Shown here piece by piece: positions 983 through 57,099 of a DNA stretch of 64,000 bases. The position numbers and the translations under genes are program-made. The notes below the pieces were generated by a model, which saw only the letters and a program-made list of their open reading frames with translations, was not told where the DNA came from and made no database searches. This stretch comes from Naegleria gruberi (Eukaryota), in assembly GCA_000004985.1 (NCBI GenBank), contig GG738857.1. The stretch is one strand, 5' to 3'. Each line of letters starts with the position of its first letter. The stretch's first letter is position 1.

Positions 983-2743
983 ATGGCGCAACACCTTCCT
1001 GCAGAGATTCTGTTTCATATTTTTACTTCCTTCACATCACCCGATCAGTATTTAAATAATTTAATGCTCGTCTGTCGGGATTGGTATCAAACAACTAATT
1101 ATGAAATGTTTTGGTTGGCCTCTTTAAAGCGTATGATGAAACAACAAATACTTGATTGTGCCAGTGAAACATTAGAAAATTGTATTACTTATGCCTATCC
1201 GGAATATCTTGTTATCAAGAAAAATGATATTCTCAAGGAGAGGCAGCACTATGTGTCCAGTTTGAAAAATAGAGAGAAAATTCTGGTGGTGGACATGAAG
1301 CCATTCACAAAAAGGAAAGAAACTAATGATGACATTTATGGAGATTCATACAAGACGAAATGCATTCAGTTTATAAGGGAGAGAAGAAAGAGATTGATTG
1401 CTTTGGAAATGGCAAAATTGGCCATCACTTTTGAACAACCTTCTTTATTTCAAGACAAATCCGAATGGACGCAAATCATGAAACTTATTGAAAATAATCA
1501 ATTTTTCGATAAGAAGGTGGTTGCAAATTTGGGAATTTTCAATACTTCAACAACAATATTTCACATTTTTATCAAACAAGCACTAATTCATCAAGTTATT
1601 GGAGAGGAAGAGTTTTTTGACACAGTTGCGTCATTCTTTATATGTGATTGTGGACTAAATGTCTCCACATATATTGAACCATTAATTGAGTCTAGGAAAA
1701 TAAGATCTTTCTTGAAAGAGCGGAATAATTCTGAGACATTCTTTGAAAAATATAAGAATGAAGTGAAATCTACTGCTAAGTCAGGAGTACCTGCTTATTT
1801 GTTAAAATTAATAGTTTCAAGAGTATCAATGAATAATGAATCACATATTGAATTTGTAGGAAAATGTGTTGAGCTATTCAAGAGTAAGAAATTGATAAAA
1901 TTTAAGGAGAGTATGGTAGAGCCGTACACTAATATTTATATGAATGCTTTATATCCTAATTGGAAAAATATTGAATTATACCTAAAAGATATGAAACTGA
2001 TGGAGTGTAATGGATTTGATCATTATGAATTCATTGATAGTATTATCAGAAAGGGTGTATTTTTTATGAATGAGGATGAGCATGAGGATTTAATTATAGA
2101 ACTTTTACAACGAGCTCACCAAGAGTTTGGACTCAAATTAGACGTTCCTCTTCCCATGTCTCTCACTGATACTAGAACGACAAAAACCCTCAAATTTCTC
2201 GTAGAGAATGGAGTTGATATTAATTATTTATTGCCCAATGGCACATCTCCACTTGCACAATTCATAAGGCATAAATCAAATATTGATGCCATTTTGTACC
2301 TGATTGAGAGAGGAGCCACTATTCCACCAATTGAGACTGCAACTACGATCAACAAATTAGACAAGCTTTTTGATTACATTTCAGACATTGATGAGTCTAA
2401 ATTCATGTCAACATTGAAAATTCTTGTGGAAAAGTTTGGACCAAGATTTTCAGGAGTTGCAATTGAAAATCTCTCTGTTGTGCATTTAAGTATGGATAAT
2501 TTATTTGCATTGTTACTATTGTTGAAACAAAGTACACATTTCAATGAAGATGAATCCACCTCCCTAGCACTCACAAGGTTTTATTGTAAATGGTACAACT
2601 ATAATGGAATTAATTTTGATAAGAAGGAGGAATTCAGAAATTTTGTGGAAAATGAATTGGGTATTCAATTAATTCAAGCAATTATTGATGAGAGCAATAT
2701 TGGTGGCGAAATTGACGAAGAGGATGAAGAATTTTTGTTATGA
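983..2743 (+). CDS. F-box domain protein (586 aa), possible ankyrin-like repeats toward C-terminus
   Basis: N-terminal F-box-like motif LPAEILFHIFTSF...LMLVCRDWYQ. Long single ORF, ATG at 983, TGA stop. C-terminal LVENGVDINYLLPNGTSPLAQF resembles an ankyrin repeat. Confidence 0.6.
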   Translation: MAQHLPAEILFHIFTSFTSPDQYLNNLMLVCRDWYQTTNYEMFWLASLKRMMKQQILDCASETLENCITYAYPEYLVIKKNDILKERQHYVSSLKNREKILVVDMKPFTKRKETNDDIYGDSYKTKCIQFIRERRKRLIALEMAKLAITFEQPSLFQDKSEWTQIMKLIENNQFFDKKVVANLGIFNTSTTIFHIFIKQALIHQVIGEEEFFDTVASFFICDCGLNVSTYIEPLIESRKIRSFLKERNNSETFFEKYKNEVKSTAKSGVPAYLLKLIVSRVSMNNESHIEFVGKCVELFKSKKLIKFKESMVEPYTNIYMNALYPNWKNIELYLKDMKLMECNGFDHYEFIDSIIRKGVFFMNEDEHEDLIIELLQRAHQEFGLKLDVPLPMSLTDTRTTKTLKFLVENGVDINYLLPNGTSPLAQFIRHKSNIDAILYLIERGATIPPIETATTINKLDKLFDYISDIDESKFMSTLKILVEKFGPRFSGVAIENLSVVHLSMDNLFALLLLLKQSTHFNEDESTSLALTRFYCKWYNYNGINFDKKEEFRNFVENELGIQLIQAIIDESNIGGEIDEEDEEFLL

Positions 2744-11382: not shown

Positions 11383-13071
11383 ATGTCTCTTCACTTTCCA
11401 TCTGCTTTGCCTGATAACTTTTCATCACAACACAAAGCATCAACGCCAGACTATCACACTCTCTCGTGGTATCAACAAGAAATACAATCCGAAACTGTTC
11501 GACAACAGAATAAAACAATTCCTACTCTTCCACCAAAAACCTCACCTAGAAGAGTCAACAAACATCCAGTCACTAATCATGGTTGCATAGTATTGGACAA
11601 TGGAACAGAAAATATTAAAATTGGTTTATCAGGAACTGATTTTCCACAATTTATTATACCAACCATCATTGGTAAACATCAGAAATATGCACATTACAAT
11701 ACCTATGGAGAAGATGCACTCCATGCTCAGAGAGAAGCTAGTAGCACCTCTCAGAAACGTAGATCTGAAACCAACCCTTCACCAAATTATCAATTCATTT
11801 GTCCAATTGAGAAGGGAGTTGTAATTTCAATTGAAGAGATGGAAAACTTTTGGAATCACCTTTTTAAAGATAAGATGAGAGTGAATTTGAGAGAAAATGG
11901 GGTGGTCATGAATGAGAATATATCCATTTATCATTCTTTGGAATCTATTGGAGCTGTAGAAAAGTATAGAGAAGATTTGACTCAATTAATGTTTGAGAAA
12001 TTTGAAATTCCATTTTTGTATATGGCCATTCCTCAAGTCATGTCTCTGTATTCGAAAGGAAAAACAAGTGGATTTTGTGTGGATATGGGTCATTCATTGA
12101 CGAGTGGTATTTCTGTGTTGGATGGTATTGCATATTTTCAAGAAAATCAATCGAATAGTTATCCTACCTCTCTGACTCTTTCTCCATCAGAAAAGACCTA
12201 TTTCAATATTAATATAGGAGGCAGGGAACTATCAGAACACTTCTCCAAACTCATTCAAGACAATCCTCTCAACAATAATTTAAGAATTAGCACAAGTGCT
12301 GAAAGAGAATTCATTGAAGGATTGAAGAAACGTTCATGTTACTTGGCCACTGATTTTTCAAAGGAAGTTGCTAAATATCCGTCACCATACGATGACCAAG
12401 CAGCTATCTCTCCCAGAGGTCAATTATTGGAAGATGATGCCTTTCAACTTCCTGATGGAAAAACAATTTGGATTGGAAAGGAAAAATTTGTCTGTTGTGA
12501 AATGTTCTTCCAACCATCTCTGTACAATTTATCAAATGTTCACTCCTCGAGTACAACCTGTGCTCCAATGACAAGGAGAGGCAGATCCAGTTCAATCAAG
12601 AGGAGACTCACTTTAACAAACAGTTCTAAGGAAATGATAACCAAAGGCATGCATGAAATGATTCATGAATCCATATCTAATTTCTCCTCTCCAGATAAGA
12701 ATGAAGAAGATTACATACCTATTCAAGAAACATTATTGGGAAATATTCATGTATTTGGTGGAACCAGTTTGATGAAAGGTCTGGAGAATCGTTTATTGAG
12801 AGATGTCAAGAGAGAGTTAGCTCTTAGAAAGAGAATTTCAGTTTCTCAAACCAAAGTCAAAGTATTTTCACCTGATTCTTCATCAACTTGTGCTTCGACT
12901 TGTGATTTGGAGAATAGTGCATGGATTGGATCATCGATTTTATCAAGCTTTAATGATTTTCTTAATATGGATCAAGATTCAAGTCAATTTTCACATAATT
13001 TTGCCATGACAAGACGAGTTTATGAAGAAGAAGGCGCTCAAGCCATTCACAAGTATTACAATACTTGTTAA
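11383..13071 (+). CDS. Actin-related protein (divergent ARP with long insertions, 562 aa)
   Basis: Actin-fold motifs align with actin: [31 protein letters not shown] vs [50 protein letters not shown] vs [21 protein letters not shown]; C-terminal [13 protein letters not shown]. ATG at 11383, TAA stop. Confidence 0.75.
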   Translation: [562 protein letters not shown]

Positions 13072-23314: not shown

Positions 23315-24470
23315 TTATCCAGTATTAGCCATGACAGAAATTGTACAGGTTGCACTTGTTAACATTTTGAGGGTGTGTGTTACTTCTCCATCCTCACCAA
23401 CTGCAATACTTGTTGGGGCAATAGTTGCATTGAAGTAGGAACAGGAGTTGCAATTATTGCAAGACCATTGACAATCTTGATGTAAAACTTGTAGGCAATG
23501 TATCTGGAATGGTGTTAATTGAAGCATGTTCAGAATTCTGAAAAAAGCAAGTCCTGTTGGTTGAGTAAGAAGAGTATCAGTAATATTGATACCATTTCCA
23601 AAGTTCCTTCTTGTCCACCAATAAGTAATGATAGTCTTATTGGTAATTGATAGCTTTCTAATTCTAAAGTTATGAGTATCTACTATATAGATAAACTCAT
23701 CCATACCTTCCACTGAGTAGACAATTTGACTTGAGTAAAAACTCAAGAGTTGAAAGAACATCATCAGTGCAAACAGAGTCCAAATTGTTGATAGCAAATG
23801 TTGGAAAGTGTAAATCTTTTTGATAAATCAATTGCTTTCTATTGCCTCTTTCTCCTCTGTATGTGTAAGAGAACCATCTATTGTAAATGTCTACACTCAA
23901 ATCAAACGGTAAAATCAGCTTTTAATCAGTGAGAATGAACATAGTTTCCCTTGGAGGATCATATTTCAAAATGAATTCACCTTCAGAGTTGTAAGGATTT
24001 AGATGGCAACAGTTGCTGTTGTGTAGACAACCTTAATACTTGCTAAATCTTCTAAAACAGTTCCATCAACAACAGTTACTATTTCTTGCATCACAGTTTC
24101 TAATTAATGGCAGGACTTTAAGTCTTGATAGAATGTATAGCACCAACCAAATTGAAATGTGAAGAGATTACACTCATAAACATCAAATTCTCTGACATCA
24201 TTTTCCAAAACTGATTATTTCAAATTATTATTTTGGTGAAGATTTCACCTTAAATGTTCCATGGTGTCAATTATGAAATGGAATTAAGGTAAAATTTCAA
24301 ATAAATCGTAGGTACTTACATTTATTACCCTGTTGCTGCTCCCACTCCAACTTATTAATTAAACACATCACAATCATATATAATACCCAACAAGATAGCA
24401 ACGTATTCAGGAGTAAATAACAAAAAGCAACAGCAAGTGATGAGGTAGGAGCCAAACAAGCAGCATACTT
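23315..24470 (-). CDS. Putative NHL-repeat protein, multi-exon, N-terminal hydrophobic leader; structure unresolved
   Basis: ORF 23315-23797 contains FIYIVDTHNFRIRKLS (NHL-repeat-like, compare YVADTGNHRIRKI). A GTAAGT...TTTAAG intron lies near 24243-24313. MLLVWLLPHHLLLLFVIYS-like start near 24470. Confidence 0.25.
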
Positions 24471-25232: not shown

Positions 25233-28200
25233 ATGAAACACCACAACAAGGTCCTATTCACCACGATTTTATTGTGTTGCTTCTACTTTTATTGGAAATC
25301 ATCATTTGTTTCATCATCAATATTATCAACTGTATCACCTTCTTCTGGTTTTAATCCTCATCACCAAACACCCATTAACAGTAAAATACTAATACCAGAT
25401 ATTTATCGAGAATTTAGTGATGCACATAGAGAAGCTGCTGTAGCGGATTCACAATTTCCTTCTACTTTTGAATATTATCAAGAAGAACAACATTATGTAA
25501 ATAGTACCCTTGTAGATAACTTAAAGAAACGTTATGAACAGTTGGCACATGATCATGGCAGAAGAAGATCTTTGGAAGGTTCTAATGATGAAAGTAATTA
25601 TCTGGCATCAGAAGAATTGTGGACAGAATATATCAAGACGACTATTTATTTGAATTATACCTTCTACATGTCAGCGAATGGGGGTGGTAGTGCCGATCAA
25701 CCAAATTGTACAATGGAATTTCCTTGTGCAAGCATTGCTGATTTAATGAAAGGAATTGATAAGAGAGTGTTTGTCAAGTCGAATGAATACTTTCTCTACT
25801 TGTTCTCAATGAAGAGATTTATCATTGTTAATGTAGTTTTCATGGATGACATGCTGCAGTTGGAATGTGATTCTCCAAAAAACTCATTCCTTCGATTGCC
25901 AATTATGAATGTCATGTTCATGTTTAGATTTAGTAGTTTTAGTAATTTAGAGAGGAGGACAATTTCATGTGGTGAGAAACAGGGACTTTTATTCGATAGT
26001 ACTAGAAGAGACATTTTAATGATCTTGGTTTCAAACCTTAATTTACGATTTGTCTATTTTAGAAATGATTACTTTCTCAATTTTGGAATTCATCATAGCT
26101 CAAGTTTTGTACTTTTTGTTGTCAACGTGGATATACAAAACCCAAAACATCTAATTGTGGAATATTGTGATCTTGAGCAGTCAGCATTTGCTTACAGAAA
26201 ATCAGATCTTGCAGTATTTTCCTTTTCCAAATTCACATACTACAATACTATTAGTCTGTATGCAGCAGCAGATATTCAGATGGCTGTTTTGGAAGTGAGT
26301 GGTATTTTGAAAACTGACTTTTTGAATGTGCAACAATTCTTGCTTTATAGATCCAATTTCAAACGTCATTCAATCATTTTCTTTATTACAGGTAGTGGAA
26401 TTATTCATGTTGAAGATTGCCGTTTTGAAGATCAATCAGTTCAGAGTGTCATGTTTGATGTCACTAAAGGGCAAACTTTCCAATTTTTCAATAACTATGT
26501 GAAAGGAAATATTGTTGTCTTGGATGTTAAGGCTCAGACTCTTATATCAATTATTAATTCTACCTTCATTGAGAATGATATACCAACACTAAATAATTCA
26601 AAACGGTTCCAACTGTATCAGTCTTACAATTCTCCTGTAAATTTTAAAAGTAGTTTAATTCTTTCCATTCAAAATTCAACATTTGACAATAATTTTGGAG
26701 AGAAAGGAGCACATGCTTATGTACAAGATGTAATAGAAATACGTGTTGAAGGATCCAAGTTCTTGAATGGAAGAGGCAGTGCTTTGGTAATTGACACAAT
26801 GCCATCTTCTGACTTGTATAGATATTTAATCTTTGTTTCCAACTCTTTATTCGAAAATAATGAATCACCAGATTATGGTGGTGCTTTTAGAATCTTATAC
26901 TCAATTCAAGCAAACTTCATGAATTGTATCTTTAGAAATAATGTGGCTTATTATGCTGGTGGTGCTCTCAATTTTTTGTTGGCAAATGTGATTACTCTTA
27001 ATGGAACAATATTTGAAAGAAATAGGGCCTTATTTGGAGAAGAAACACCTGACAATGAGCTTTTTTATCGAGGTTCTGGTGGCGCAATTTCTATCTCTCG
27101 ATCACCTCAACCACTTAATATTAATGGTGCAACTTTCATTGAAAATGAAGCATATGCAGGAGGTGCCTTATTTTTCACTGGTGTTGGAGTTGATACTGTC
27201 TCAAATTGTTTATTCAGAAAGAATAGAGCTACGAATACAGGAGGGGCAATTTTCCATTTTGCACAACTCAATATGACACAGCCCAAGTTCAGTAATGTGA
27301 TATTTGATCAAAACAGTGCTGCAGTTTATGGTAATGACTTTTTCGCATCAGTCAATGAAATGATGAAGGAAGAAACTTACCTTTCCATCTATCCAGGACA
27401 AACAATTTTCATACCAATGACCACTTTTACAAATAATGTACAGGTGCCTTGCAATGTAGATCGTTTCGTTGTTGCTTCTGCAGAGTATCCAGATCTTTAT
27501 TTCCATGTTAAGGAATTGGCTGAGGGTTTAAATATTACCCTTTTAATTTTAAATGGTACACTGCCAGAGTATGCTGGAATAGCTTTGAATACCACAGTTA
27601 AAGTGGAACAAACCTATGAAAGTGGATGGTTTTCAGAGTTTACCATTCTTCCTTGTCCAGATGGATACGAGTACAAGTTCAGTAACAATTTTGGAGTTGC
27701 TGCCTATATGTGTGTATCTGGTAATGCCCTAACTTGGAAGGAAATTGTTGCTATTACTGTTCCAGCAGGTTTTGCATTCTTTATTATGGGAACTTTTTCT
27801 GGAATTTTTGTTCTTTTTATGTTTATGAAAATTGTGAGACGATTGAGAATTTTGTCAAGCAAAGAAAAAGCAGAAAAGGCAGTAGCTCAAAGAATTATTG
27901 ACAAGAGAATTGTTTTTGGAAGTGATTATGAGCCATCCAAATCTAATGACACCAATTATTTTGATACTCTTTCTGCACCATTGTTGGCTTCAAATGAAGT
28001 TGAACTGAAAATCAGCAGACGAGTACGAGATTTCCTTATTCCTATCGAAGCCATAGAAATCATCTCAAAGGTTGCTGAAGGTGGACAAGGTGTAGTTTAT
28101 GTTGCCCTCTTGTATGGAAAGACAAAGGTTGCTGTGAAATCTTTGAAAAAACTAATGAGTGATGGAAATGATGTTAATGATACAGATGACGAGTTTGAGA

Positions 28201-29018
28201 AGGAAGTCTCAATTTTATACAGTCTTAGACATCAAAATATTTTAAAGTTTTTTGGAATTGCATTGACAGAGGATAGCAAATACATGATTACTGAATATTT
28301 GGAGAATGGTTCACTGGAAAGAATGATTTATAAATTAAGAATTGGAAAGGCATCTCTCACATTAAAGCAAAAGCTAATCATCTTGCAAGATATTTGCTCT
28401 GGATTGGAATATTTACACTCTCTTGAACCACCAATAGTTCACAGAGATTTGAAACCAGGCAATGTCCTTTTTGATTCAGATTATAGATGTAAGATTTGTG
28501 ATTTTGGATTGAGTAGAGCTGTTGGTAATTTAAACACTAACAATTCAATGACCAGAGGAATAGGTACATTACTTTATTCAAGTCCAGAGAGTTGGACCTC
28601 TTCGACGAGTGATATTGGAAATTCACAGGACAAGATACTGAAAGCTACCAAGGGAGATGTCTACAGCTTTGGAATAATGATGCACGAGCTATTCTTTGAA
28701 TTATCTCCCTATTCACAATCTTCAAAAATTGGTAGCAATCTTACGGATGACCAAAACATGATTAATGTCCTAGCTCATGTTGCTAGAGGAAACAGACCTC
28801 TCATTCCATTCAAAAACGCAGATCAAGTTAGAGAATGGTTACAACTCTATCCTTTACAACCGTACACAGTGAGTATGAGTCTTTGTCAAATAGTATTGGA
28901 CTATTTCAAATTGACTGCTCAATGTTGGGATGAAAAGCCAGAAATGAGACCTTCAATCAAGGAAGTGGGTGATGAACTTAAAAGACTTTTATTTGAATTA
29001 TCAGCAAATTGTGAATAA
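25233..29018 (+). CDS. Receptor-like protein kinase: signal peptide, extracellular parallel beta-helix (Pmp-type GGA[ILV]/FxxN repeats), one TM helix, cytoplasmic Ser/Thr (TKL-like) kinase domain
   Basis: Repeated GGAFRI/GGALNF/GGAISI/GGALFF/GGAIFHF with FENN/FRNN/FERN/FIEN/FRKN/FDQN motifs. TM helix ITVPAGFAFFIMGTFSGIFVLFMFM. Kinase motifs VAVK, HRDLKPGNVLF, DFGLSR, SPE. 1261-aa intronless ORF, TAA stop. Confidence 0.8.
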   Translation: MKHHNKVLFTTILLCCFYFYWKSSFVSSSILSTVSPSSGFNPHHQTPINSKILIPDIYREFSDAHREAAVADSQFPSTFEYYQEEQHYVNSTLVDNLKKRYEQLAHDHGRRRSLEGSNDESNYLASEELWTEYIKTTIYLNYTFYMSANGGGSADQPNCTMEFPCASIADLMKGIDKRVFVKSNEYFLYLFSMKRFIIVNVVFMDDMLQLECDSPKNSFLRLPIMNVMFMFRFSSFSNLERRTISCGEKQGLLFDSTRRDILMILVSNLNLRFVYFRNDYFLNFGIHHSSSFVLFVVNVDIQNPKHLIVEYCDLEQSAFAYRKSDLAVFSFSKFTYYNTISLYAAADIQMAVLEVSGILKTDFLNVQQFLLYRSNFKRHSIIFFITGSGIIHVEDCRFEDQSVQSVMFDVTKGQTFQFFNNYVKGNIVVLDVKAQTLISIINSTFIENDIPTLNNSKRFQLYQSYNSPVNFKSSLILSIQNSTFDNNFGEKGAHAYVQDVIEIRVEGSKFLNGRGSALVIDTMPSSDLYRYLIFVSNSLFENNESPDYGGAFRILYSIQANFMNCIFRNNVAYYAGGALNFLLANVITLNGTIFERNRALFGEETPDNELFYRGSGGAISISRSPQPLNINGATFIENEAYAGGALFFTGVGVDTVSNCLFRKNRATNTGGAIFHFAQLNMTQPKFSNVIFDQNSAAVYGNDFFASVNEMMKEETYLSIYPGQTIFIPMTTFTNNVQVPCNVDRFVVASAEYPDLYFHVKELAEGLNITLLILNGTLPEYAGIALNTTVKVEQTYESGWFSEFTILPCPDGYEYKFSNNFGVAAYMCVSGNALTWKEIVAITVPAGFAFFIMGTFSGIFVLFMFMKIVRRLRILSSKEKAEKAVAQRIIDKRIVFGSDYEPSKSNDTNYFDTLSAPLLASNEVELKISRRVRDFLIPIEAIEIISKVAEGGQGVVYVALLYGKTKVAVKSLKKLMSDGNDVNDTDDEFEKEVSILYSLRHQNILKFFGIALTEDSKYMITEYLENGSLERMIYKLRIGKASLTLKQKLIILQDICSGLEYLHSLEPPIVHRDLKPGNVLFDSDYRCKICDFGLSRAVGNLNTNNSMTRGIGTLLYSSPESWTSSTSDIGNSQDKILKATKGDVYSFGIMMHELFFELSPYSQSSKIGSNLTDDQNMINVLAHVARGNRPLIPFKNADQVREWLQLYPLQPYTVSMSLCQIVLDYFKLTAQCWDEKPEMRPSIKEVGDELKRLLFELSANCE

Positions 29019-29096
29019 GGTCATTACGTATTTCTAATGGAATCAATACAATTAAACAATTTAATTGATAAAAACAAGATTCAATTATTTCTTGAA

Positions 29097-30782
29097 TTAT
29101 TTTGAGGTTAGTTTGCCCATTAGATATTCTAATGTGTGAGGAGAGAAGGTTTCTTCGTGAGAGTTTGGTTCAATGTACTCTGAATACATATTCTCTAGAA
29201 GATTGTAAATTTTTTGAACTGTTACATTATGCTTTTCACAAAATTCCAAAAAGTCTTTGAATTTTCTTGCCAGTTCAGTATTTTTGAAGGTATAATAATA
29301 CATTGGTTTTTCGCAATGGCAAGTGACAATTAATTGAATGATAAACTTGAGTTCGTGATCACTATTGAATGCTCCACCTCCCCAGTTACCTGTAGAAATA
29401 TTCGAATAGAAATTCAATCCATAATTCTTTCTAATAGAACAGAATGCAGAATAGGCCTTGATAATTTCTCTATCTATACAATCAATCTTCCACTGTTTCA
29501 ATTTTTCATTCGTATAGTAATATTTAGAATCGAATGCAACAATTTGTGATTTGAAGCAAAATAGATGTTCGCTTTCCTTCTCATAATTTCCATCAATAAA
29601 GTCTCCCTTATAGAGGAGTGATTTGGCATATCCTTGATGTGAACTAAACTGCTCTGTTCCACAAATTAATAATGACTCATTATTCGAAAGCTTTTCAACA
29701 ATCAACCTAGAGATGATACATTCAGGACTGAGTGCAAATCTAATTTCCTCCTGAACGGCTCCTCCTCTTAAAACTCCTCCTCCAATGTACTTGTTTGCAA
29801 AGTCACTGTGAATGGCATTTTCACAATCCTCAATTGATCCTTCTGGAAGAACAATCACTTGATTGTTTGATATTTCAACAGTTGATTGTTGAATTTGACA
29901 AATGACTTGATATGGCTCTACTTTCTTTCTAATAAATGTCACATAGCCAAATCTTTTAATTTCCTCAATTCCTCTCTCACATAATCTCTCAAAATAATGG
30001 ATAATCATCAAGAGTTTGGAGCTACTTGCAATGTATGGATTGATAAACAGAGTATCCATGTTAATACTTGTAATTTTCAAGGTTCCTTCCTTTACATCTC
30101 CCAATCTTGAAAATGTACAAAAGAAACTATTTGCCAATATACAAGCACATTCCAATTTAGTCAATTTCACAGCTCTTGATTCATTATTAATTGATGACTT
30201 GTTCAATTCCTCCAATATTGGCAGTAATCCTTCATTCAACACTATAGTTGACTGTCTCTGACATTCATGTTCATACAAATCACCAGCATACGATCCAAGA
30301 ATGCTCTCAGATTTCAAAACCAACTCAATGATGAATGGCAATGTTTCAGTAAAAAACTTTGGACGTCCTTCCCACTTTGCACTACTCTTCTCATCCAATA
30401 ACATACTCAATAGATTAATATCTTGAACTAGAACTGATTCCACTTGTTTCTTATCATGTGATTGATAGGAAATTTTCTGAATTTTCCTCACAATTGCAGC
30501 AAATTCAGCACTTGATGAAATTTCGCTCTCTTTCAAAATATTTGCAATTTCCGTCCATGAATTCTTCATCATGAAGGGAAATACAACATGTGCTGAAGAG
30601 GAAAAATTGTATTTCCCTTCCGAATTTGTAAATTTTTGTTTGGTAAATTGTGAATTATATTTCCTAGAATTTGCTTTGAATTTTTCTGATTTTTCTTCAT
30701 GTTCTTCTTGCTGTGTTGTGATCAAATCTGACAAATCGCGTTTCTTCTCCGAAGCATGATGCAACGACCTGAATAACGGCAT
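29097..30782 (-). CDS. Poly(ADP-ribose) glycohydrolase (PARG)
   Basis: PARG catalytic signature GGGVLRGGAVQEEIRF and TGNWGGGAFNSDHELKFIIQ. The track start at 30818 is GTG; the first ATG is 30782 (MPLFRSLHH...). TAA stop. Confidence 0.8.
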   Translation of the reverse strand: MPLFRSLHHASEKKRDLSDLITTQQEEHEEKSEKFKANSRKYNSQFTKQKFTNSEGKYNFSSSAHVVFPFMMKNSWTEIANILKESEISSSAEFAAIVRKIQKISYQSHDKKQVESVLVQDINLLSMLLDEKSSAKWEGRPKFFTETLPFIIELVLKSESILGSYAGDLYEHECQRQSTIVLNEGLLPILEELNKSSINNESRAVKLTKLECACILANSFFCTFSRLGDVKEGTLKITSINMDTLFINPYIASSSKLLMIIHYFERLCERGIEEIKRFGYVTFIRKKVEPYQVICQIQQSTVEISNNQVIVLPEGSIEDCENAIHSDFANKYIGGGVLRGGAVQEEIRFALSPECIISRLIVEKLSNNESLLICGTEQFSSHQGYAKSLLYKGDFIDGNYEKESEHLFCFKSQIVAFDSKYYYTNEKLKQWKIDCIDREIIKAYSAFCSIRKNYGLNFYSNISTGNWGGGAFNSDHELKFIIQLIVTCHCEKPMYYYTFKNTELARKFKDFLEFCEKHNVTVQKIYNLLENMYSEYIEPNSHEETFSPHTLEYLMGKLTSK

Positions 30783-30872
30783 TTTTTTTATATAGAGTTT
30801 ACAATCAAATTTACACACAACCTAGTTCAATATTTGTTTCCTCCTTAAATACATGATAAAAATTGATTCTCT

Positions 30873-33406: not shown

Positions 33407-33478
33407 CGTTATTTTATATGAACATGTTAAACTCAATTATTTCACTCTTCTGAAAAATGTAAAGATTTTACATTTAGA

Positions 33479-34597: not shown

Positions 34598-35302
34598 ATG
34601 TCCCTTCTCGATCTTCCCAGAGAAATTTTCGTTCTCATCCATTCATATACCGATTTTCAAACTATTCTAAACCTCCGAACCATTTGTAAATATTTATCCC
34701 TCACTTCCAAATATTATCAATCAGAAGTTGTGGATTTTACAAAAGATTATTCTGATTATTATTCATTGGGCGAAACTATATTCGATTTTAAAGGAAAGGA
34801 AAATTTGAATAGTTACATTGAGCCGACAGTTTTGTTTCTCGGTGAAAATATTGGAAAAATTGAATCGGTTCAGGTTCAGATGGACGAATGTGGAGAACCA
34901 AGTTTCGGATTTATTGAAAATATATTCGAAAGTTGTTTACAGTCAATTTCAGAGCTGAAATTTGATTTGTGGTTTCCTAGAAAAAGTAGCAAAGCACAAG
35001 TCAACACAGAACATGGATTAGAATCAAGTCAGTCAAGATTCCTGTCAAAATTCATGAGATTGAGAGCACTGTCATTGATTTTAACACATACAAGTCATGA
35101 ATATTTTAATTTGATTTTAGATGAAATAGAAAGAGGAAATTTCAAAGAATTGAAGAAATTTGAATTGTGCATTCGATGTACAACTCTTTCAGATTCGAAT
35201 ATTCAACAACTGGAGAGAATAATCAATCGAATGAAGACATTGACGCATTTGACATTGGAAATATATCACACTCATGAGCAACAAGAGTTGGTGAATCAAT
35301 AA
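34598..35302 (+). CDS. F-box protein (234 aa)
   Basis: LLDLPREIFVLIHSYTDFQTILNLRTICKYL is an F-box motif. ATG at 34598, TAA stop. Confidence 0.5.
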   Translation: MSLLDLPREIFVLIHSYTDFQTILNLRTICKYLSLTSKYYQSEVVDFTKDYSDYYSLGETIFDFKGKENLNSYIEPTVLFLGENIGKIESVQVQMDECGEPSFGFIENIFESCLQSISELKFDLWFPRKSSKAQVNTEHGLESSQSRFLSKFMRLRALSLILTHTSHEYFNLILDEIERGNFKELKKFELCIRCTTLSDSNIQQLERIINRMKTLTHLTLEIYHTHEQQELVNQ

Positions 35303-46510: not shown

Positions 46511-48721
46511 TTACATGACCAAACACTTGTCCTTATTATTTGGTCCTGTGGCTACGTGAAGTGTATCACCAAAGTTGAAGACATACTTGACGAAACTGTT
46601 CCAATCGATGGTTCTGGCTACTTTTCCAAATTTGTTGCACTTGTGGTACTGTTGGACAATGGCTTGTTCTAGTGCCTTATTATTGGTAATGTTTTCTCCA
46701 GTTTCACTGCTCACTTCAACATAGATTGGAGGAACAGAGCTGTAGATAAATTTGTTCTTGATGATATCTTCCACTTGTTCCTTAATATAAATGTGTTCAG
46801 CAACATCGTCCATAATATCTAACTTGTTACCACAAATAATGATAGGTATTTGTGAGAGTTCGAGAAAATGTTTCCTGTTGAGAATTTGATCAATAATCTT
46901 TTGAGTGTATGGGAGAGTTTGTTCTGAATTAGTCAAATCAAAAAGAAGGATGAATAAATCAAAATGACTAATATTGTAATCTAAAAGTATATCAGATACA
47001 TCTTGTCCAGGTGTATCAAAAATATCAATACTATAAGTTTCATTATCAATAGTTATCAAATCATCCTCTGGGTTATGCTCAAAGAATTCGTCATAGTTTC
47101 TGTGAGCAAATTTCATTGAGAGCATACTTTTACCTGTTGTCTTGTCTCCCATGATTGCTACCCTGATGATTCGAGATTGAGATTCTGTTGAGAACTTGTC
47201 ATTTTCCAAATATTCCTCTTCCTCAATTTGTTCCTCACTTTTTCTGAATGTTTTGTACATGGTTTCATAATCGAGAGTATTATTGGAGCTGTATGTACGT
47301 CTGTGAGATACTCGTGAAGGAGTGGCAGTTAAGCCGCCTGCACCACCTCTTTGTGGTGTAGTTGGAATGGAGCCCATTGATGTATTATGAGAGGGAGTTG
47401 GTGGAAAATTAAAGCTGTCATGAGGGAGCAATAGTAAATTTGAATTTGATGATGAATTGCTCAATCCTCGGTCTCTTGTAGTATCTGATAATTGATCAAG
47501 TGATACTCTGCCTGAATATTCTGTAAGTTCTTCGTTACTATTGCAATCGGTAGAAGTAAGGTTAGTGAGTGTGTTGGTATTATTATTTACAAAACTTCCA
47601 TTTCTTGATGGAGTTCTTGGAGAAGCTAAAGAACCAAAATTGGCACTACTTGGATAATCGAAACTATTCGTCACATTGAATGATTGAGATCTGCCGTGGC
47701 GTACTCTGGATGGATGTTTCCTCTTTCCTTTTTCAATTTCTGTATTTCTGTACAAATACCATGCGTGATTAATTTTTGAAAACAAACCCTTATAGTCTGT
47801 TGGATTGGATTGTGAAATATTGTCACTGATTGATTGTCTGTGGAAGTAATCAGTGTTTTTCAGAGCTGTCAGTGAGATTGCTTTATCAGGTTTCTTATCT
47901 GGCATTTGCTCACTTATGTGTTTCAGCTCGGTAACGTAATTTCTAATATCTCTGAGAATGAGCCTATTGGTATCCTCTGATGTCATCCACAAAAACTTTA
48001 AATGTAAAACATCTGCATAAAAGATTGGTGAAAAGTGCCTTCTCACAACAAAAAAGAAATCCTTATTGACAAGCTCCAAGCTATGAATGACATCTCTCAT
48101 AACAGTCACACAGTCAATCAATCCTATCATACCCTTTCCATATATTTTAGAAGGACGACGAGCTCTTCTACTGGAAGAATGCGACGTAGTATTTACACTA
48201 AGCAAATTCATTGCTGATTGAAAAATGTTATTCACCATACCCTTGCTTTCTGCAACATCCACTCTATCCGAAATGATTGGAATTAAAAACAAGAGAATGT
48301 GTTTAGTAATTTCTCTATTCCACATGATTTTTGTACTATGTCCAAATCCAAAATTAAATAAATTCTTCCTAACTGATCCTCCTTGAACATTTCCACGATC
48401 AATAGAAGTTCTTATATCGGATGAACGATCAATACTCGTTCTAGAAACTGCATTAGGTGGTGTTTTTAAAGGTGATGCTCCTTTTAAATTAGGTGTTGCT
48501 GGTGATATATTTTCATTAATATTATTGTTGGCCGTAGTGGCAAAAGTTATTGATGTTGTAGAAGGAAGAATTGATGATGATTTTGATGGTGTTTTACTCT
48601 CCTTTTCGGGTGGCGAAGCAATACTAACTGTTATCAGTGTATTAGAAGAATCGGATGTATTCTTGTTCTTATTTGTGTCCGACACTGATGATGATGAGGA
48701 TGTTGTTGATTGTTTACTCAT
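46511..48721 (-). CDS. Ras-superfamily small GTPase with about 500-aa S/T/N-rich N-terminal extension and C-terminal CAAX box (CLVM)
   Basis: G1 GDKTTGKS, G3 DTPGQD, G4 GNKLD in the C-terminal third. The protein ends ...KDKCLVM*. The track start at 48724 is GTG; the first ATG is 48721. Confidence 0.7.
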   Translation of the reverse strand: MSKQSTTSSSSSVSDTNKNKNTSDSSNTLITVSIASPPEKESKTPSKSSSILPSTTSITFATTANNNINENISPATPNLKGASPLKTPPNAVSRTSIDRSSDIRTSIDRGNVQGGSVRKNLFNFGFGHSTKIMWNREITKHILLFLIPIISDRVDVAESKGMVNNIFQSAMNLLSVNTTSHSSSRRARRPSKIYGKGMIGLIDCVTVMRDVIHSLELVNKDFFFVVRRHFSPIFYADVLHLKFLWMTSEDTNRLILRDIRNYVTELKHISEQMPDKKPDKAISLTALKNTDYFHRQSISDNISQSNPTDYKGLFSKINHAWYLYRNTEIEKGKRKHPSRVRHGRSQSFNVTNSFDYPSSANFGSLASPRTPSRNGSFVNNNTNTLTNLTSTDCNSNEELTEYSGRVSLDQLSDTTRDRGLSNSSSNSNLLLLPHDSFNFPPTPSHNTSMGSIPTTPQRGGAGGLTATPSRVSHRRTYSSNNTLDYETMYKTFRKSEEQIEEEEYLENDKFSTESQSRIIRVAIMGDKTTGKSMLSMKFAHRNYDEFFEHNPEDDLITIDNETYSIDIFDTPGQDVSDILLDYNISHFDLFILLFDLTNSEQTLPYTQKIIDQILNRKHFLELSQIPIIICGNKLDIMDDVAEHIYIKEQVEDIIKNKFIYSSVPPIYVEVSSETGENITNNKALEQAIVQQYHKCNKFGKVARTIDWNSFVKYVFNFGDTLHVATGPNNKDKCLVM

Positions 48722-48955
48722 CACGAATTTTTTTTTTAATTTAATTCAAAAAGACCATTTTTACTTTTAGTTAACGGTACAATTTTTGCGAGACAGGCAA
48801 CGTTTGCTTGCTTGAAAAAACAATATTAAGGGCGGGAAATCTTGAATAACTTTGCAAAACCAATTCATTTATTTAAAATTAAGGAATAGGCAAGCTTTTA
48901 AAAAAAAATCAACAATATCCCCGTGCGGATTTTTTCATTTTCGTTGAACGAGGAT

Positions 48956-54220: not shown

Positions 54221-56176
54221 ATGATTACCAAAACAGAAGAGGTGGTAAACGGTATGACTATAATAACTCCAACAAAAATGGAGGAAAAAATGGAACCTCA
54301 AATTCCAAGTGACCCCATAATAGGGGGAAGGTTATCCAAATTTTCAAAGGAGTGGGAAAAGATAACCTCCAACAAAACAATATTAGATTGGGTAAAGAAT
54401 GGTCTAACAATCAACCACAACCCCCAACTAATCCATCCACTTCCACAGAGAGAACCAACGAAAGAGAAAGAGAAAATTTGGTTCCAAGAACACATAGAAC
54501 AACTGAAACAACAAGAAATGATTATAGAAGTTTCCAACAAAGAAGAAGTATTAATTCACCCAATCTACCTCATACCAAAGCGAAATTCAACAGAGCCATT
54601 CAGACCAATTTTAGATATGAGAGGGGCAAACTCTGGAATAGAAACGCTTCACTTCAAACAAGAAACGTTGAAGACAATAATGAAATTGTTAAAAAGAGGT
54701 CAATGGTGTGGAAAAATAGATCTGAAATCTGGTTACAATCACCTAAAAATAGAACGCAATTCACAGCATCTTCTAGCCTTCCAATTCAACAACAAAAGGT
54801 ACAAATACACAACTCTTCCATTTGGGCTAAATATCGCACCAAGAACATTTCACAAGATTATGAAAACAGCAATCACTCAATTAAGAAAAGAAAGTATAGT
54901 CATATTCTTCTATCTGGACGATATTTTAATAATAGGAAATTCCTTTCAAGAATGTCAGAAAAACATAGAAAGAACGAGACAATTATTAGAAAGTCTTGGC
55001 TTTGTAATTCAGATGAAAAAGTCAGTACTGTCTCCTGTTCAAGAAATAGATTTTTTAGGATCAACAATCAACACAAAACTAGGAACACTTTGTCTTCAGA
55101 AAGAAAAAATCAACACAGCCCAAAAGATCCTCAAGAAACTAGAATTGAAACATTTAAGTCAACGAAGAATCAAGATCAGAAAGTTCCAATCAATAATAGG
55201 GAAATTGATGTTCCTAAGTACAATAGACAAGAACTTAAGACCTTTTCTAATTCGACCTCAACATCACATTTCAAATATGGTAACAAAGAAAGGATGGTTA
55301 GGAGAAATGCATATCTTACGAAGCGATTTTCAAGATTTAAAGACAATCTCTGCAATCCTAAAACAATCAAAAGGAACAACGTTCGAACTAGAAACAACAT
55401 TACAAATCCTAACAACGGACTCATCGACGACAGGTTTTGGTGGAGTATCCAAAAACCTAATAATGCATGGCAGATGGAGCCATCAAATTCAAGAATACCA
55501 TATCAATTTAAAAGAATTACTAGCAGTCGAACAAATGATATTGGCAATTCAAAAGAACAAGTCTTTTTCAAAAGGAACACAATTTCACGTACGAACAGAC
55601 AATCAAGTAATCATGACTTACCTCAAGAATGGAGGAGGAAAAGTAGATTACTTAGCAACAGTAGCAAGAAGAATATGGAAAATATGTATCAACAACAATT
55701 GGCTAATCAGAAAAGTAACGTACCTTCCTTCCAAAGAAAATTTCTTTGCAGACAAGCTCTCAAGATTGGGAGAATGGGAAATAATCAATTCAACTTTCAA
55801 TCAACTCCAGCAAAAATTTGGTCCTTTCAGCATAGACCAATTTGCAAGCCAAACAAATTGCAAAGTAAGAAGGTTCGGTCAAAGAAACTTCTATCAGGAT
55901 GCTTTTTTGAACAATTGGGAACAGGAGAACAATTATTTGGTTCCTCCCTTAGGCTTAATCCTCCCAACAGTAACACACTTACTAAAAAGCAAAGCAAAGG
56001 CTCTTCTAATCGTTCCAAAATGGGAAAGCGCAGTTTGGTGGCCAGTTCTAATGAAGATAACACAAGAAACATTATTCTTAACGAAAGAGGACATGATCTT
56101 CAATCAAGACATGGAACTATCCAGAAACTCAGAATGGAACTTTGTAGCACTAAAGGTTCAAGCAACCACCTACTAA
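54221..56176 (+). CDS. ORF2, reverse transcriptase plus RNase H of the DIRS/Ngaro-like element (651 aa)
   Basis: RT motifs (IPKRNSTEPFRPILDMRGAN, FQFNNKRYKYTTLPFGLNIAPRTF, IFFYLDDILIIG). RNase H (TDNQVIMTYLKNGGGK...ENFFADKLSR). The DIRS-typical downstream block FSIDQFASQTNCKVRRF...LVPPLGLILPTV...ALLIVPKWESAVWWPVL. Confidence 0.8.
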   Translation: MITKTEEVVNGMTIITPTKMEEKMEPQIPSDPIIGGRLSKFSKEWEKITSNKTILDWVKNGLTINHNPQLIHPLPQREPTKEKEKIWFQEHIEQLKQQEMIIEVSNKEEVLIHPIYLIPKRNSTEPFRPILDMRGANSGIETLHFKQETLKTIMKLLKRGQWCGKIDLKSGYNHLKIERNSQHLLAFQFNNKRYKYTTLPFGLNIAPRTFHKIMKTAITQLRKESIVIFFYLDDILIIGNSFQECQKNIERTRQLLESLGFVIQMKKSVLSPVQEIDFLGSTINTKLGTLCLQKEKINTAQKILKKLELKHLSQRRIKIRKFQSIIGKLMFLSTIDKNLRPFLIRPQHHISNMVTKKGWLGEMHILRSDFQDLKTISAILKQSKGTTFELETTLQILTTDSSTTGFGGVSKNLIMHGRWSHQIQEYHINLKELLAVEQMILAIQKNKSFSKGTQFHVRTDNQVIMTYLKNGGGKVDYLATVARRIWKICINNNWLIRKVTYLPSKENFFADKLSRLGEWEIINSTFNQLQQKFGPFSIDQFASQTNCKVRRFGQRNFYQDAFLNNWEQENNYLVPPLGLILPTVTHLLKSKAKALLIVPKWESAVWWPVLMKITQETLFLTKEDMIFNQDMELSRNSEWNFVALKVQATTY

Positions 56177-57099
56177 CATTATTCAAAGCAAGAGATGTTA
56201 TCCTCAAATACAAGTTAGCTGATTCGACAATCAGAACATACAGAAACCACGTTAACAAATTTAAAGATTTTTGTTTCTGGTATAACATTGAAAGATGTTG
56301 GAATCTGAATTCCATTTCCCTTTATCTCACAAACATGTTATTGAAAGGCTCAGGTGGGTCAGTGAAACAAGCATGTGCCGCCCTTCAACATGAAACCAAA
56401 TGTTTGGGCATTGTGGTTGATTGGAAAAATTCAATAATTTCCGATATCAGATCATCTACAACAAAGATATGGTCTCTCTTTGATAGAGAAAAACTAATTA
56501 GAGAACCATTTGATTTAGCTAACCTAAAATATTGGTTAGAAAACCCACCAAACATTGACCCTTGGTCATTCAAACTCTATGCTGCAGTAATTGCTGTTGG
56601 TGTTCGTGCATTAATGAGACCTGGAGAGTTAGCGGATTTGTCATTCGGTGATGTGTCTTACAATAAGGATGGTCATTTAGTTTTCACTTTAGGACAAACA
56701 AAAACAGATCAACAAGGAAAAGGTGAAAAAATTACTATTGAACCTTCCTATTCCGAAATATGTCCTGTCAAAATATTCCAAACCTATTATGATCACTGTA
56801 AGCAATTTAAATCTCCTAAGTGCCCATTATTTAGCAACCCTAGATCCAACACATTCTTTAGAACTGCAGATATTTCTAATATAGTGAAATATGTATCACA
56901 ACATAATCCAAACAACACTTCAATTGTCTCTGGACATTCACTTAGAAAAAGAGGTGCTACACATCTTGCAAAATCTGGTTACACATCTTCTCAACTAAAA
57001 GTTGCTGGACGATGGAGATCTGATTGTTACTTAACATACATATCAGAAGAAATCTTACCTTCCTTAGGTACTTCAAATACTTTATTCTCGGGACAATAA
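56134..57099 (+). CDS. ORF3, tyrosine recombinase (YR) of the DIRS/Ngaro-like element; part of a 915-codon open frame (54352-57099) overlapping ORF2 in the +1 frame
   Basis: YR catalytic residues in order: VRALMRPGELADL (Arg), HSLRKRGATHLAKSGY (His-x-x-Arg), GRWRSDCYLTYI (Tyr). First ATG after the ORF2 stop region is at 56134. The stop at 57097-57099 abuts repeat B1. Confidence 0.75.
   Translation: MELCSTKGSSNHLLTLFKARDVILKYKLADSTIRTYRNHVNKFKDFCFWYNIERCWNLNSISLYLTNMLLKGSGGSVKQACAALQHETKCLGIVVDWKNSIISDIRSSTTKIWSLFDREKLIREPFDLANLKYWLENPPNIDPWSFKLYAAVIAVGVRALMRPGELADLSFGDVSYNKDGHLVFTLGQTKTDQQGKGEKITIEPSYSEICPVKIFQTYYDHCKQFKSPKCPLFSNPRSNTFFRTADISNIVKYVSQHNPNNTSIVSGHSLRKRGATHLAKSGYTSSQLKVAGRWRSDCYLTYISEEILPSLGTSNTLFSGQ

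What the first reader, a model, noticed from the sequence alone, without database searches (positions are those of the whole stretch)
25233..29018. Receptor kinase with a Chlamydia-Pmp-type (GGA[ILV]/FxxN) beta-helix ectodomain
At least five GGA[IL] repeats, each paired with an upstream FxxN motif, sit in the roughly 800-aa extracellular part. A single TM helix and a Ser/Thr-type kinase domain (HRDLKPGN, DFG, SPE) follow. Pmp-like beta-helix repeats are best known from bacterial autotransporters and adhesins. Coupling them to a eukaryotic kinase suggests a ligand- or surface-sensing receptor family, probably part of a lineage-specific expansion, that may be poorly annotated.
Basis: partly seen in the sequence, partly recalled or inferred. 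Interest (0 to 1): 0.5.

Follow-up and report, generated by a model that had tools for sequence, protein, structure and literature searches.

The report
Naegleria receptor kinase with Pmp beta-helix
This is an intact gene of the amoeba Naegleria gruberi for a membrane-spanning protein kinase whose outer part is a beta-helix built from the repeats known from Chlamydia surface adhesins; the combination occurs in a few uncharacterised Naegleria proteins, and I found no paper describing it.

Summary
Window 25233..29018 (+) is one uninterrupted 1261-aa ORF in a Naegleria gruberi NEG-M scaffold. It encodes:
- a signal-peptide-like N-terminus
- an ectodomain of about 800 aa with five FxxN…GGA[F/L/I] rungs (0.04 GGA motifs expected by chance) plus degenerate rungs
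- one TM helix (aa 838-868)
- a complete kinase domain (Pfam E 4e-42), whose closest solved relatives are CTR1, SOBIR1 and TNNI3K

The family is small. I found two copies in N. gruberi, two each in N. fowleri and N. lovaniensis, and two unnamed sequences. All are named only "hypothetical" or "protein kinase domain-containing". No protein at least 50% identical to this ectodomain exists among about 15 billion proteins, so this locus appears to be unannotated.

The most likely function is a type I receptor-like Ser/Thr kinase that senses a surface or glycan ligand or mediates adhesion.

The parts
25233..29018 (+). Whole coding sequence (1261 aa plus stop), intronless
   Evidence: Single ORF. It aligns along its full length with N. 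lovaniensis C9374_010964: 33% identity over 1188 columns, E 3e-174.
25233..25316 (+). Signal-peptide-like N-terminus (aa 1-28: MKHHNK + VLFTTILLCCFYFYW + KSSFVSSS)
   Evidence: Read directly from the sequence; no signal-peptide predictor was available. N. fowleri FDP41_007973 also has a hydrophobic N-terminal stretch. In N. lovaniensis an upstream in-frame Met gives one too.
25317..25607 (+). Variable, poorly conserved N-terminal segment (aa 29-125)
   Evidence: This segment has no counterpart in most relatives in alignment A1.
25608..26828 (+). N-terminal part of the beta-helix with non-canonical or degenerate rungs (aa 126-532). Includes the conserved R258-x-D260, FIEN 445, FDNN 484 and FLNG..GSA 510-518.
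   Evidence: Alignments A1 and A2; repeat HMM. The AF2 model is all-beta here, with low-confidence stretches at aa 277-366.
26829..27368 (+). Canonical Pmp-type rungs (aa 533-712): five FxxN…GGA[F/L/I] units of 26-30 aa (one of 41 aa) plus a terminal degenerate unit (FDQN…YGND)
   Evidence: Pfam Beta_helix covers aa 563-698 and the Chlam_PMP match covers aa 658-674. This is the region matched by nearly all Pmp-repeat proteins. The F, N, G, G and A positions are invariant in the family. pLDDT is mostly 80-97.
27369..27737 (+). Membrane-proximal stalk (aa 713-835) with the conserved YPGQ (720-723), P739, C808 and C827; probably an Ig-like beta-sandwich
   Evidence: Invariant columns; beta strands in the model. 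Foldseek finds matches of 100-125 residues to SbsC, Big and Rib domains at probability 1.0. Assigning those matches to this segment is my inference.
27744..27836 (+). Single transmembrane helix (aa 838-868)
   Evidence: Kyte-Doolittle 19-residue windows score 1.8-2.2. Basic residues (KIVRRLR) follow it. The model shows a long helix.
27837..28055 (+). Cytoplasmic juxtamembrane segment (aa 869-941) with the family-specific motif L..L..KEKAEK....I.DK.I[IV]F and PLL
   Evidence: Invariant columns L871, L874, K877, E878, A880, E881, D890, K891, F895, P916 and L917.
28056..28976 (+). Protein kinase domain (aa 942-1248) with all catalytic motifs present
   Evidence: Pfam PF07714 E 3.9e-42 and PF00069 E 1.3e-41; motif positions. 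The nearest PDB chains are CTR1 (1e-30), SOBIR1 (8e-27) and TNNI3K (6e-26).

Best explanation
The gene encodes a type I, single-pass receptor-like protein kinase of Naegleria gruberi.

**Shown.** The domain order is:
1. a signal-peptide-like N-terminus
2. a long right-handed parallel beta-helix, whose C-terminal rungs are canonical Pmp repeats (FxxN…GGA[ILV]) and whose N-terminal rungs are degenerate
3. a short conserved stalk with two invariant cysteines
4. one TM helix
5. a conserved juxtamembrane motif
6. a kinase domain, Ser/Thr-type and TKL-like, with all catalytic residues

**Inferred.** The beta-helix is exposed on the cell surface, or in the lumen of phagosomes or endosomes. There it binds an extended ligand, most plausibly a polysaccharide or glycoconjugate on bacterial prey, on the substrate or on another cell, or it self-associates as chlamydial Pmps do. 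Ligand-driven clustering would bring the cytoplasmic kinase domains together. They would then trans-phosphorylate their activation loops (Ser/Thr-rich, aa 1093-1117) and signal to downstream targets such as the actin, adhesion or phagocytosis machinery.

It belongs to a small Naegleria-wide family, so this is a conserved function and not a one-off fusion.
For: **Source and gene.**
- Three neighbouring ORFs are exact matches to N. gruberi proteins EFC46754, EFC46865 and EFC46868 on a 573-kb contig.
- The ORF is intact at 1261 codons (chance about 1e-38).

**Kinase.** It is complete and resembles TKL kinases.

**Topology.**
- One TM helix with basic residues on its C-terminal side.
- 12 N-glycosylation sequons in aa 29-837 against 5 in the cytoplasmic part.

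**Pmp homology.** Supported by the motif count against shuffles, the exhaustive HMMER search, Pfam results for the hits and relatives and the family-profile search.

**Fold.**
- The AF2 model has mean pLDDT 70.6, and mostly 80-97 over the canonical rungs.
- Foldseek agrees weakly.

**Conservation.**
- Eight family members share the whole architecture or the parts that are present.
- The Pmp motif positions, the stalk cysteines, the juxtamembrane motif and the catalytic residues are all invariant.

**Adhesion role of Pmp motifs elsewhere.**
- Pmp tetrapeptide motifs mediate adhesion in Chlamydia.
- Trichomonas Pmp-like TM proteins increase adherence (PMC6701047, read).
Against: - There is no expression, localisation, ligand or activity data of any kind.
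- The protein's own Pfam Chlam_PMP score is below the curated cut-off.
- The alignment behind the AF2 model has only 7 sequences, and parts of the N-terminal helix are low-confidence.
- AF2 is reported to over-predict beta-solenoids for repeat sequences. I know this only from the title and abstract of bioRxiv 10.1101/2024.10.30.621056, listed.
- In Trichomonas, tagged Pmp-like proteins localised mainly to ER and Golgi, not to the surface (PMC6701047).
- Signal-peptide cleavage could not be predicted with a dedicated tool.
Confidence: 0.7

Rival explanations
1. The ectodomain is an enzyme, not a sensor. It would be a membrane-tethered polysaccharide lyase, hydrolase or epimerase of the pectin-lyase fold that digests prey or matrix glycans, with the kinase coupled to it.
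For: Many of the best structural matches are carbohydrate-active beta-helix enzymes: GH110, GH87 alpha-1,3-glucanase, AlgE4 epimerase, PL6 lyases and capsule depolymerases. The only PDB sequence match of the family profile is a weak one to a PL6 alginate lyase (E 0.033).
Against: Sequence similarity is to Pmp-type adhesin repeats. No CAZyme family appears among the Pfam hits at E<=1. Sequence identity to the enzyme structures is 8-16%. The invariant residues of the family are the structural FxxN/GGA positions, not an acidic catalytic cluster.
Confidence: 0.1
2. It is mainly an adhesin or endocytic/phagocytic receptor. The kinase would act inside-out, regulating adhesion, trafficking or turnover, and would not relay an extracellular signal. 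The protein may reside largely in ER, Golgi or phagosomes.
For: Pmp motifs are adhesion determinants in Chlamydia. Trichomonas Pmp-like TM proteins raise adherence yet localise mostly to the endomembrane system (PMC6701047). The prokaryotic relatives include autotransporter-type proteins (some hits carry a PF03797 barrel) and Methanobrevibacter Pmp-repeat proteins with Ig-like domains.
Against: A conserved, catalytically complete kinase with a conserved juxtamembrane motif is the hallmark of receptor kinases that signal outside-in. Nothing in the data distinguishes the two directions.
Confidence: 0.15
3. It is an unexpressed or decaying gene copy, which would explain why it is missing from the N. 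gruberi protein set. The annotated paralogue NAEGRDRAFT_74710 would be the functional one.
For: The exact product is not in the collection. No protein at least 50% identical to the ectodomain exists among the cluster representatives. The 5 kb upstream holds only broken ORFs.
Against: An open frame of 3.8 kb in 33% G+C DNA is not expected by chance (about 1e-38). All structural and catalytic invariant residues of the family are kept. G+C content matches the flanks.
Confidence: 0.03

Closest known systems
Uncharacterised Naegleria Pmp-repeat/TM/kinase proteins: N. lovaniensis C9374_010964 and C9374_009604, N. fowleri FDP41_007973 and FDP41_004237, N. gruberi NAEGRDRAFT_74710 (UniProt D2W030)
   Same: They share the same architecture along the whole length and are 28-37% identical overall, with a far better conserved kinase domain (phmmer E 1e-71 to 1e-110 against the window's kinase domain). 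The Pmp motif positions, stalk cysteines, juxtamembrane motif and catalytic residues are invariant.
   Different: This N. gruberi copy is intronless and has an extra N-terminal segment of about 100 aa. Its product is not in the protein collections. None of the relatives has a described function, and no paper in the library mentions their locus tags.
Chlamydial polymorphic membrane proteins (Pmps; Pfam PF02415 plus autotransporter PF03797)
   Same: Both have tandem FxxN/GGA[ILV] rungs that form a right-handed beta-helix exposed outside the cell (PMC10715098).
   Different: There is no autotransporter beta-barrel. The protein is anchored by a eukaryotic-type TM helix and continues into a cytoplasmic kinase. 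It has only about 5 canonical rungs. Its own Chlam_PMP score is below Pfam's cut-off.
Trichomonas vaginalis Pmp-like transmembrane proteins (48 genes; Handrich et al. 2019, PMC6701047)
   Same: Both are eukaryotic single-pass membrane proteins with a Pmp-repeat ectodomain; the Trichomonas proteins are implicated in adhesion.
   Different: The Trichomonas proteins have short cytoplasmic tails with endocytic motifs. The word 'kinase' does not occur in that paper.
Methanobrevibacter and bacterial Pmp-repeat proteins (for example P0002, P0069, P0168)
   Same: These are among the best non-Naegleria sequence matches that carry an organism name (E 1e-64 to 1e-97 with the family profile). They also follow the beta-helix with Ig-like domains (Pfam Big_1 and others), which parallels the beta-helix plus stalk arrangement here.
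   Different: They are prokaryotic, much more repetitive, and have no TM-kinase module.
Single-pass receptor-like kinases of plants and protists (plant RLK/Pelle such as SOBIR1, WAKs and CrRLK1L; Entamoeba and amoebozoan TMKs; PMC10463195)
   Same: They have the same logic of ectodomain, one TM helix and a TKL-like Ser/Thr kinase. The G-loop xEGGxGxVY and DVYSFG resemble the plant RLK/TKL motifs (the motif comparison is from my own knowledge). SOBIR1 is among the closest solved kinases.
   Different: Their ectodomains are LRR, EGF-like, malectin-like, Cys-rich and so on (from my own knowledge). The terms 'Naegleria', 'PMP', 'beta-helix' and 'pectin' do not occur in the cross-kingdom TMK survey. 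'PMP' and 'pectin lyase' do not occur in the Chlorophyta RLK survey.

Membership tests
Pmp-repeat proteins (Pfam PF02415 Chlam_PMP) | Tandem pairs of the FxxN and GGA[ILV] tetrapeptides | tested here: met
   Five pairs at aa 540-673 (one is GGAF), against 0.04 GGA[ILVF] expected.
Pmp-repeat proteins (Pfam PF02415 Chlam_PMP) | Whole-protein score above Pfam's gathering threshold (20.6 bits) | tested here: not met
   This protein scores 14.5 bits, E 0.042. Its relatives P0009, P0010, P0012, P0026 and P0057 score 32-48 bits.
Pmp-repeat proteins (Pfam PF02415 Chlam_PMP) | Significant sequence similarity to undisputed members | tested here: met
   phmmer against 1.84 billion representatives gives E 7.6e-66, 2.9e-63 and 3.4e-33 to P0007, P0008 and P0013. 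These carry 370, 307 and 222 bits of Chlam_PMP. The family profile reaches E 1e-97 to PF02415 proteins.
Pmp-repeat proteins (Pfam PF02415 Chlam_PMP) | Repeats form the rungs of a right-handed parallel beta-helix | tested here: met
Chlamydial-type Pmp autotransporters | C-terminal autotransporter beta-barrel (PF03797) and the Pmp middle region | tested here: not met
   Neither appears in the Pfam list at E<=1. The C-terminal part is a TM helix plus kinase.
Eukaryotic protein kinase superfamily | Kinase domain profile above threshold, with the catalytic residues present (beta3 Lys, alphaC Glu, HRD Asp, Asn, DFG) | tested here: met
   PF07714 scores 144.8 bits and PF00069 scores 143.1 bits. K969, E991, H1070-R-D1072, N1077 and D1090-F-G are present and invariant in the family.
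TKL group of protein kinases | Groups with TKL kinases in a kinome-wide classification | tested here: inconclusive
   The best six PDB sequences are all TKL: CTR1, SOBIR1 and TNNI3K, E 1e-30 to 7e-26. HRDLKPGN, DVYSFG and CW…RPS are TKL-like (my own knowledge). No phylogeny or kinase-group HMM library was run.
Type I single-pass receptor-like kinases | Cleavable signal peptide, one TM helix, ectodomain outside, kinase inside | tested here: inconclusive
   A single TM peak at aa 838-868 and an N-terminal hydrophobic stretch at aa 8-23. Positive charges follow the TM helix and sequons are enriched on the N-terminal side. No dedicated signal-peptide or topology predictor was available, and there is no experimental topology.

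The most novel reading that the evidence does not exclude
A prokaryotic adhesin cassette (Pmp beta-helix followed by an Ig-like stalk) was captured by an ancestor of Naegleria and fused to a TKL kinase. That would create a receptor-kinase class with no counterpart in animals, plants or Amoebozoa. The receptor would read bacterial or host surface glycans and drive adhesion or phagocytosis signalling. Because it is conserved in N. fowleri, it could be a surface-exposed, druggable determinant of host-cell contact in primary amoebic meningoencephalitis.
Probability: 0.2. Interest if true: 0.65.

Novelty: new variant of a known kind. Interest (0 to 1): 0.4.

Why it matters
Receptor-like kinases are defined by what their ectodomain recognises. 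I found no description of a Pmp-type beta-helix ectodomain in the receptor-kinase surveys or the Pmp literature I could search.

The family is conserved across Naegleria, including the pathogen N. fowleri. That offers a concrete and testable candidate for how these amoebae couple surface contact (prey, substrate or host cell) to intracellular phosphorylation.

In practical terms, the locus appears to be missing from the N. gruberi protein set, so kinome and surface-protein counts for this model organism would be incomplete.

The result remains a domain-architecture finding without functional data. Related sequences already sit, unnamed, in public databases.

Tried and rejected
1. **Exact look-up.** The product and its neighbour PARG (with its GTG start) are not in the collection.
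2. **Word-indexed homology searches.** These returned only the N. lovaniensis orthologue from the family. They missed proteins that were in the query alignment itself. I therefore do not use them as evidence of absence; the exhaustive search is used for that.
3. **The look-up of encoding contigs.** Two N. gruberi neighbours gave nothing on record, so the N. gruberi gene calls at this locus could not be inspected. Whether a kinase-only model exists is unresolved.
4. **PDB sequence searches.** Neither the ectodomain alone nor the family profile has a meaningful solved relative.
5. **afdb50 fold library.** It was not available, so other eukaryotes could not be screened by fold.
6. **Metagenome scan with the full-length family alignment.**
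   - The patterns chosen were generic kinase motifs.
   - All 80 loci match the kinase region only, at no more than 37% identity.
   - None has a Pmp-type ectodomain in any frame.
7. **Tandem paralogue or other kinase in the window.** tblastn found none.
8. **Synteny.** The N. lovaniensis orthologue has different neighbours, with no PARG next to it, so the PARG adjacency carries no meaning.
9. **Literature.** I found nothing on Naegleria Pmp-like proteins, Pmp-kinase fusions or the locus tags.
10. **Accession order as a clue to annotation status.** Only three UniProt accession slots lie between D2V8V4 and D2V8V8, although this interval holds at least seven ORFs of 200 aa or more. This fits under-annotation of 18.5-36.5 kb, but it is circumstantial and I do not rely on it.
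Full report
**Source and gene**

The window is a piece of the Naegleria gruberi NEG-M nuclear genome. Three of its ORFs translate exactly to EFC46754, EFC46865 and EFC46868, all on one 573-kb contig. G+C content is about 33% throughout, including the gene in question.

At 25233..29018 (+) there is one uninterrupted ORF of 1261 codons starting at ATG. No other ORF of at least 100 aa overlaps it on either strand. From the window's base composition, the chance of 1261 stop-free codons is about 1e-38.

The gene is convergent with a poly(ADP-ribose) glycohydrolase gene at 29097..30818 (-). That adjacency is not conserved in N. lovaniensis.

**Check of the observation**

- GGAF is at aa 549, GGAL at 576, GGAI at 616, GGAL at 643 and GGAI at 670.
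- Each is preceded by FxxN at 540, 567, 594, 635 and 661 respectively.
- The spacing is 8-9 residues, or 22 at the third rung, which carries a 13-residue insertion.
- Strictly, this is four GGA[IL] plus one GGAF.

In 20000 shuffles of the ectodomain, GGA[ILVF] occurred 0.04 times on average (maximum 2), and tightly spaced FxxN-GGA pairs 0.001 times, against 5 and 4 observed.

A small HMM built from the six units shows a period of 26-30 residues. It also picks up half-units at aa 440-448 and 479-487. The family alignment shows further degenerate rungs (FDNN…GxxGSA, FxNG.GSAIY) upstream.

There is a single hydropathy peak at aa 838-868, followed by KIVRRLR.

The kinase domain (aa 942-1248) scores 145 and 143 bits against the two Pfam kinase models. 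It retains the following:
- the G-loop EGGQGVVY
- the beta3 lysine (K969)
- the alphaC glutamate
- HRDLKPGN
- DFG
- SPE
- DVYSFG
- CW…RPS

**What the ectodomain is**

On its own the protein is a borderline Pfam case. Beta_helix scores 26.4 bits against a cut-off of 25.9. Chlam_PMP scores 14.5 bits against a cut-off of 20.6.

The exhaustive phmmer search of the ectodomain against 1.84 billion cluster representatives settles the homology:
- There were 2804 hits at E<=1e-3 and 211 at E<=1e-10.
- Nearly all of the 150 listed hits align to aa ~470-720, the repeat region.
- The best non-kinase hits checked (P0007, P0008, P0013) reach E 1e-33 to 1e-66 and carry 220-370 bits of Chlam_PMP.

A profile of the family's ectodomains hits PF02415 proteins down to E 1e-97. 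These come from Methanobrevibacter, Methanosphaera, Phycisphaerales and other bacteria (several with the PF03797 autotransporter barrel), and from the green alga Bryopsis.

An AlphaFold2 model of aa 126-940, built on the 7-sequence family alignment, has these properties:
- It is all-beta up to the TM helix.
- Mean pLDDT is 70.6.
- pLDDT is mostly 80-97 over the canonical rungs.
- Confidence is low at aa 277-366 and in the juxtamembrane tail.

Foldseek agrees weakly. It additionally finds matches of 100-125 residues to Ig-like SbsC, Big and Rib domains at probability 1.0. I attribute these to the membrane-proximal stalk (aa 713-835), which carries the invariant YPGQ, C808 and C827. That assignment is an inference.

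Two caveats apply. The alignment is shallow. AF2 has also been reported to over-predict beta-solenoids for repeat sequences (bioRxiv 10.1101/2024.10.30.621056, known to me only from its title and abstract). Here the fold call is backed independently by sequence homology to Pmp repeats, which are themselves predicted beta-helix rungs (PMC10715098).

**The family**

Among the 150 best hits, only seven clusters also contain a kinase domain related to this one. They align to the query over the whole ectodomain, not just the repeats. The named members are:
- N. gruberi NAEGRDRAFT_74710 (D2W030)
- N. lovaniensis C9374_010964 and C9374_009604
- N. fowleri FDP41_007973 and FDP41_004237

Two more sequences are unnamed: P0026, whose cluster comes from JGI/IMG and ENA assemblies, and P0020, whose source I could not look up.

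C9374_010964 aligns with the window protein from aa 132 to 1257 at 33% identity, E 3e-174.

The following are invariant across the family:
- the F, N, G, G and A positions of the rungs
- an R-x-D near the N-terminal end of the helix
- the stalk cysteines
- a juxtamembrane motif (L..L..KEKAEK….DK.I[IV]F … PLL)
- the catalytic residues

A rough NJ tree suggests about three clades in the genus. The two N. gruberi copies do not pair with each other or with any single relative: both sit on long branches beside the N. fowleri FDP41_007973 / N. lovaniensis C9374_010964 pair and the P0020/C9374_009604 pair.

This is a small conserved family, not a large expansion. One limit on that statement is that I could not scan the N. 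gruberi genome itself. There is no second copy in the window.

The N. lovaniensis orthologue has intron sequence totalling 173 nt within the kinase domain. Its annotated start skips an upstream in-frame Met that would supply a signal-peptide-like segment. The N. gruberi gene is intronless.

**Annotation status**

The exact 1261-aa product is not among about 15 billion proteins. In the exhaustive search, no representative is more than 39% identical to the ectodomain. The library is clustered at 50% identity, so no deposited protein contains this ectodomain. The neighbours' products, by contrast, are deposited.

Whether a kinase-only fragment is annotated could not be determined. The word-indexed search tool missed even sequences that were in its own query alignment, and the N. 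gruberi gene calls were not retrievable.

**Mechanism**

Shown: the domain order and the completeness of the kinase.

Inferred from the positive-inside rule, the N-terminal hydrophobic segment and the enrichment of N-glycosylation sequons (12 in the ectodomain against 5 in the cytoplasmic part): a type I topology with the beta-helix outside.

Inferred from what Pmp repeats and beta-helix surface proteins do elsewhere: the helix binds an extended ligand or self-associates. The relevant precedents are:
- adhesion that depends on the FxxN/GGA motifs in Chlamydia, and increased adherence from Trichomonas Pmp-like proteins (PMC6701047)
- glycan binding by tailspikes and CAZymes

Clustering would then activate the TKL-like kinase by trans-phosphorylation, as in other single-pass receptor kinases.

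For a bacterivorous amoeba, prey or substrate glycans are the obvious candidate ligands. I put about 0.85 on the architecture and topology, and about 0.5 on ligand-induced outside-in signalling specifically.

The rivals are these:
- A catalytic ectodomain (0.1). No CAZyme family is matched, and the invariant residues are structural.
- An adhesin or endocytic receptor whose kinase works inside-out, or which resides in endomembranes (0.15). The Trichomonas proteins were seen mostly in ER and Golgi.
- An unexpressed relic (0.03). The intact ORF and full motif conservation argue against this.

**Comparison with what is known**

The protein works like a receptor-like kinase, and its ectodomain is a member of the Pmp-repeat beta-helix superfamily.

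It is not a chlamydial-type Pmp. It has no autotransporter barrel.

It differs from the only described eukaryotic Pmp-like proteins, those of trichomonads. These have short tails with endocytic motifs, and the word 'kinase' does not occur in that paper.

The terms I searched for were absent from these sources:
- the cross-kingdom survey of transmembrane kinases: 'Naegleria', 'PMP', 'beta-helix' and 'pectin'
- a Chlorophyta RLK survey: 'PMP' and 'pectin lyase'
- the Pmp structural paper: 'kinase'
- the whole paper library: any of the family's locus tags

A metagenome scan found only generic kinases without Pmp ectodomains.

I therefore rate this as a new variant of a known kind. It is a receptor-like kinase with an ectodomain class that I found described nowhere. 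Related sequences are already present, though unnamed, in public databases for Naegleria species, and this particular N. gruberi locus apparently escaped annotation.

**Verdict**

Interest is 0.4: this is a clean and somewhat unexpected domain combination in a model and pathogen genus, with a testable hypothesis but no functional evidence.

Noticed in passing
window 54221..57099 (+): A 915-aa ORF (54352..57099) has a C-terminal tyrosine-recombinase (Phage_integrase) domain at 33 bits. A 651-aa ORF in another frame (54221..56176) overlaps it. The region has a strong AT skew (0.30). It may be a Crypton- or DIRS-like mobile element.
   Followed up: partly
window 50001-52000 and 42001-44000: These are extremely AT-rich islands (G+C 0.139 and 0.242, against about 0.33 elsewhere). 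The long ORFs listed there overlap each other on opposite strands and are probably composition artefacts.
   Followed up: no
window 20100-25200, mainly the minus strand: The 5 kb directly upstream of the kinase gene contains only broken reading frames. One of them (23315..23797, -) starts with a signal-peptide-like stretch and an NHL-repeat-like 'YIVDTHNFRIRKL'. This is either a multi-intron gene or a decayed one. It has no Pfam hit.
   Followed up: partly
window 29097..30818 (-): A poly(ADP-ribose) glycohydrolase gene (PARG_cat_C 229 bits, PARG_cat_N 86 bits) lies convergent with the kinase gene. Only 78 bp separate the two stop codons. The listed GTG start is probably not the real one.
   Followed up: partly
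window 18554-36511: Only three UniProt accession slots (D2V8V5 to D2V8V7) lie between the exactly matched genes D2V8V4 and D2V8V8. This interval holds at least seven ORFs of 200 aa or more. In the preceding interval, seven ORFs match seven slots. That suggests this stretch of the N. gruberi scaffold is under-annotated. The evidence is circumstantial.
   Followed up: no
L001 9863-13674 (N. lovaniensis PYSW02000046.1): The annotated start of C9374_010964 (MAHVLL…) skips an upstream in-frame Met (MLRGRSLLESERAGRGVLLLVVLWCSILLLLP…) that would supply a signal-peptide-like segment. The deposited model is therefore probably N-terminally truncated.
   Followed up: partly
window 36604-36686: A 27-bp tandem repeat of 3.1 copies (92% matches) lies inside the ORF of the N. 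gruberi predicted protein EFC46868.
   Followed up: no
window 983..2743, 34598..35302, 57882..58895, 46511..48724, 11383..13071: Several F-box ORFs lie in the window. The N. lovaniensis orthologue of the kinase gene also has an F-box gene directly upstream, although overall synteny is not kept. The window also holds a 737-aa protein with a Ras/Roc GTPase domain and a 562-aa ORF with an actin-family domain.
   Followed up: no
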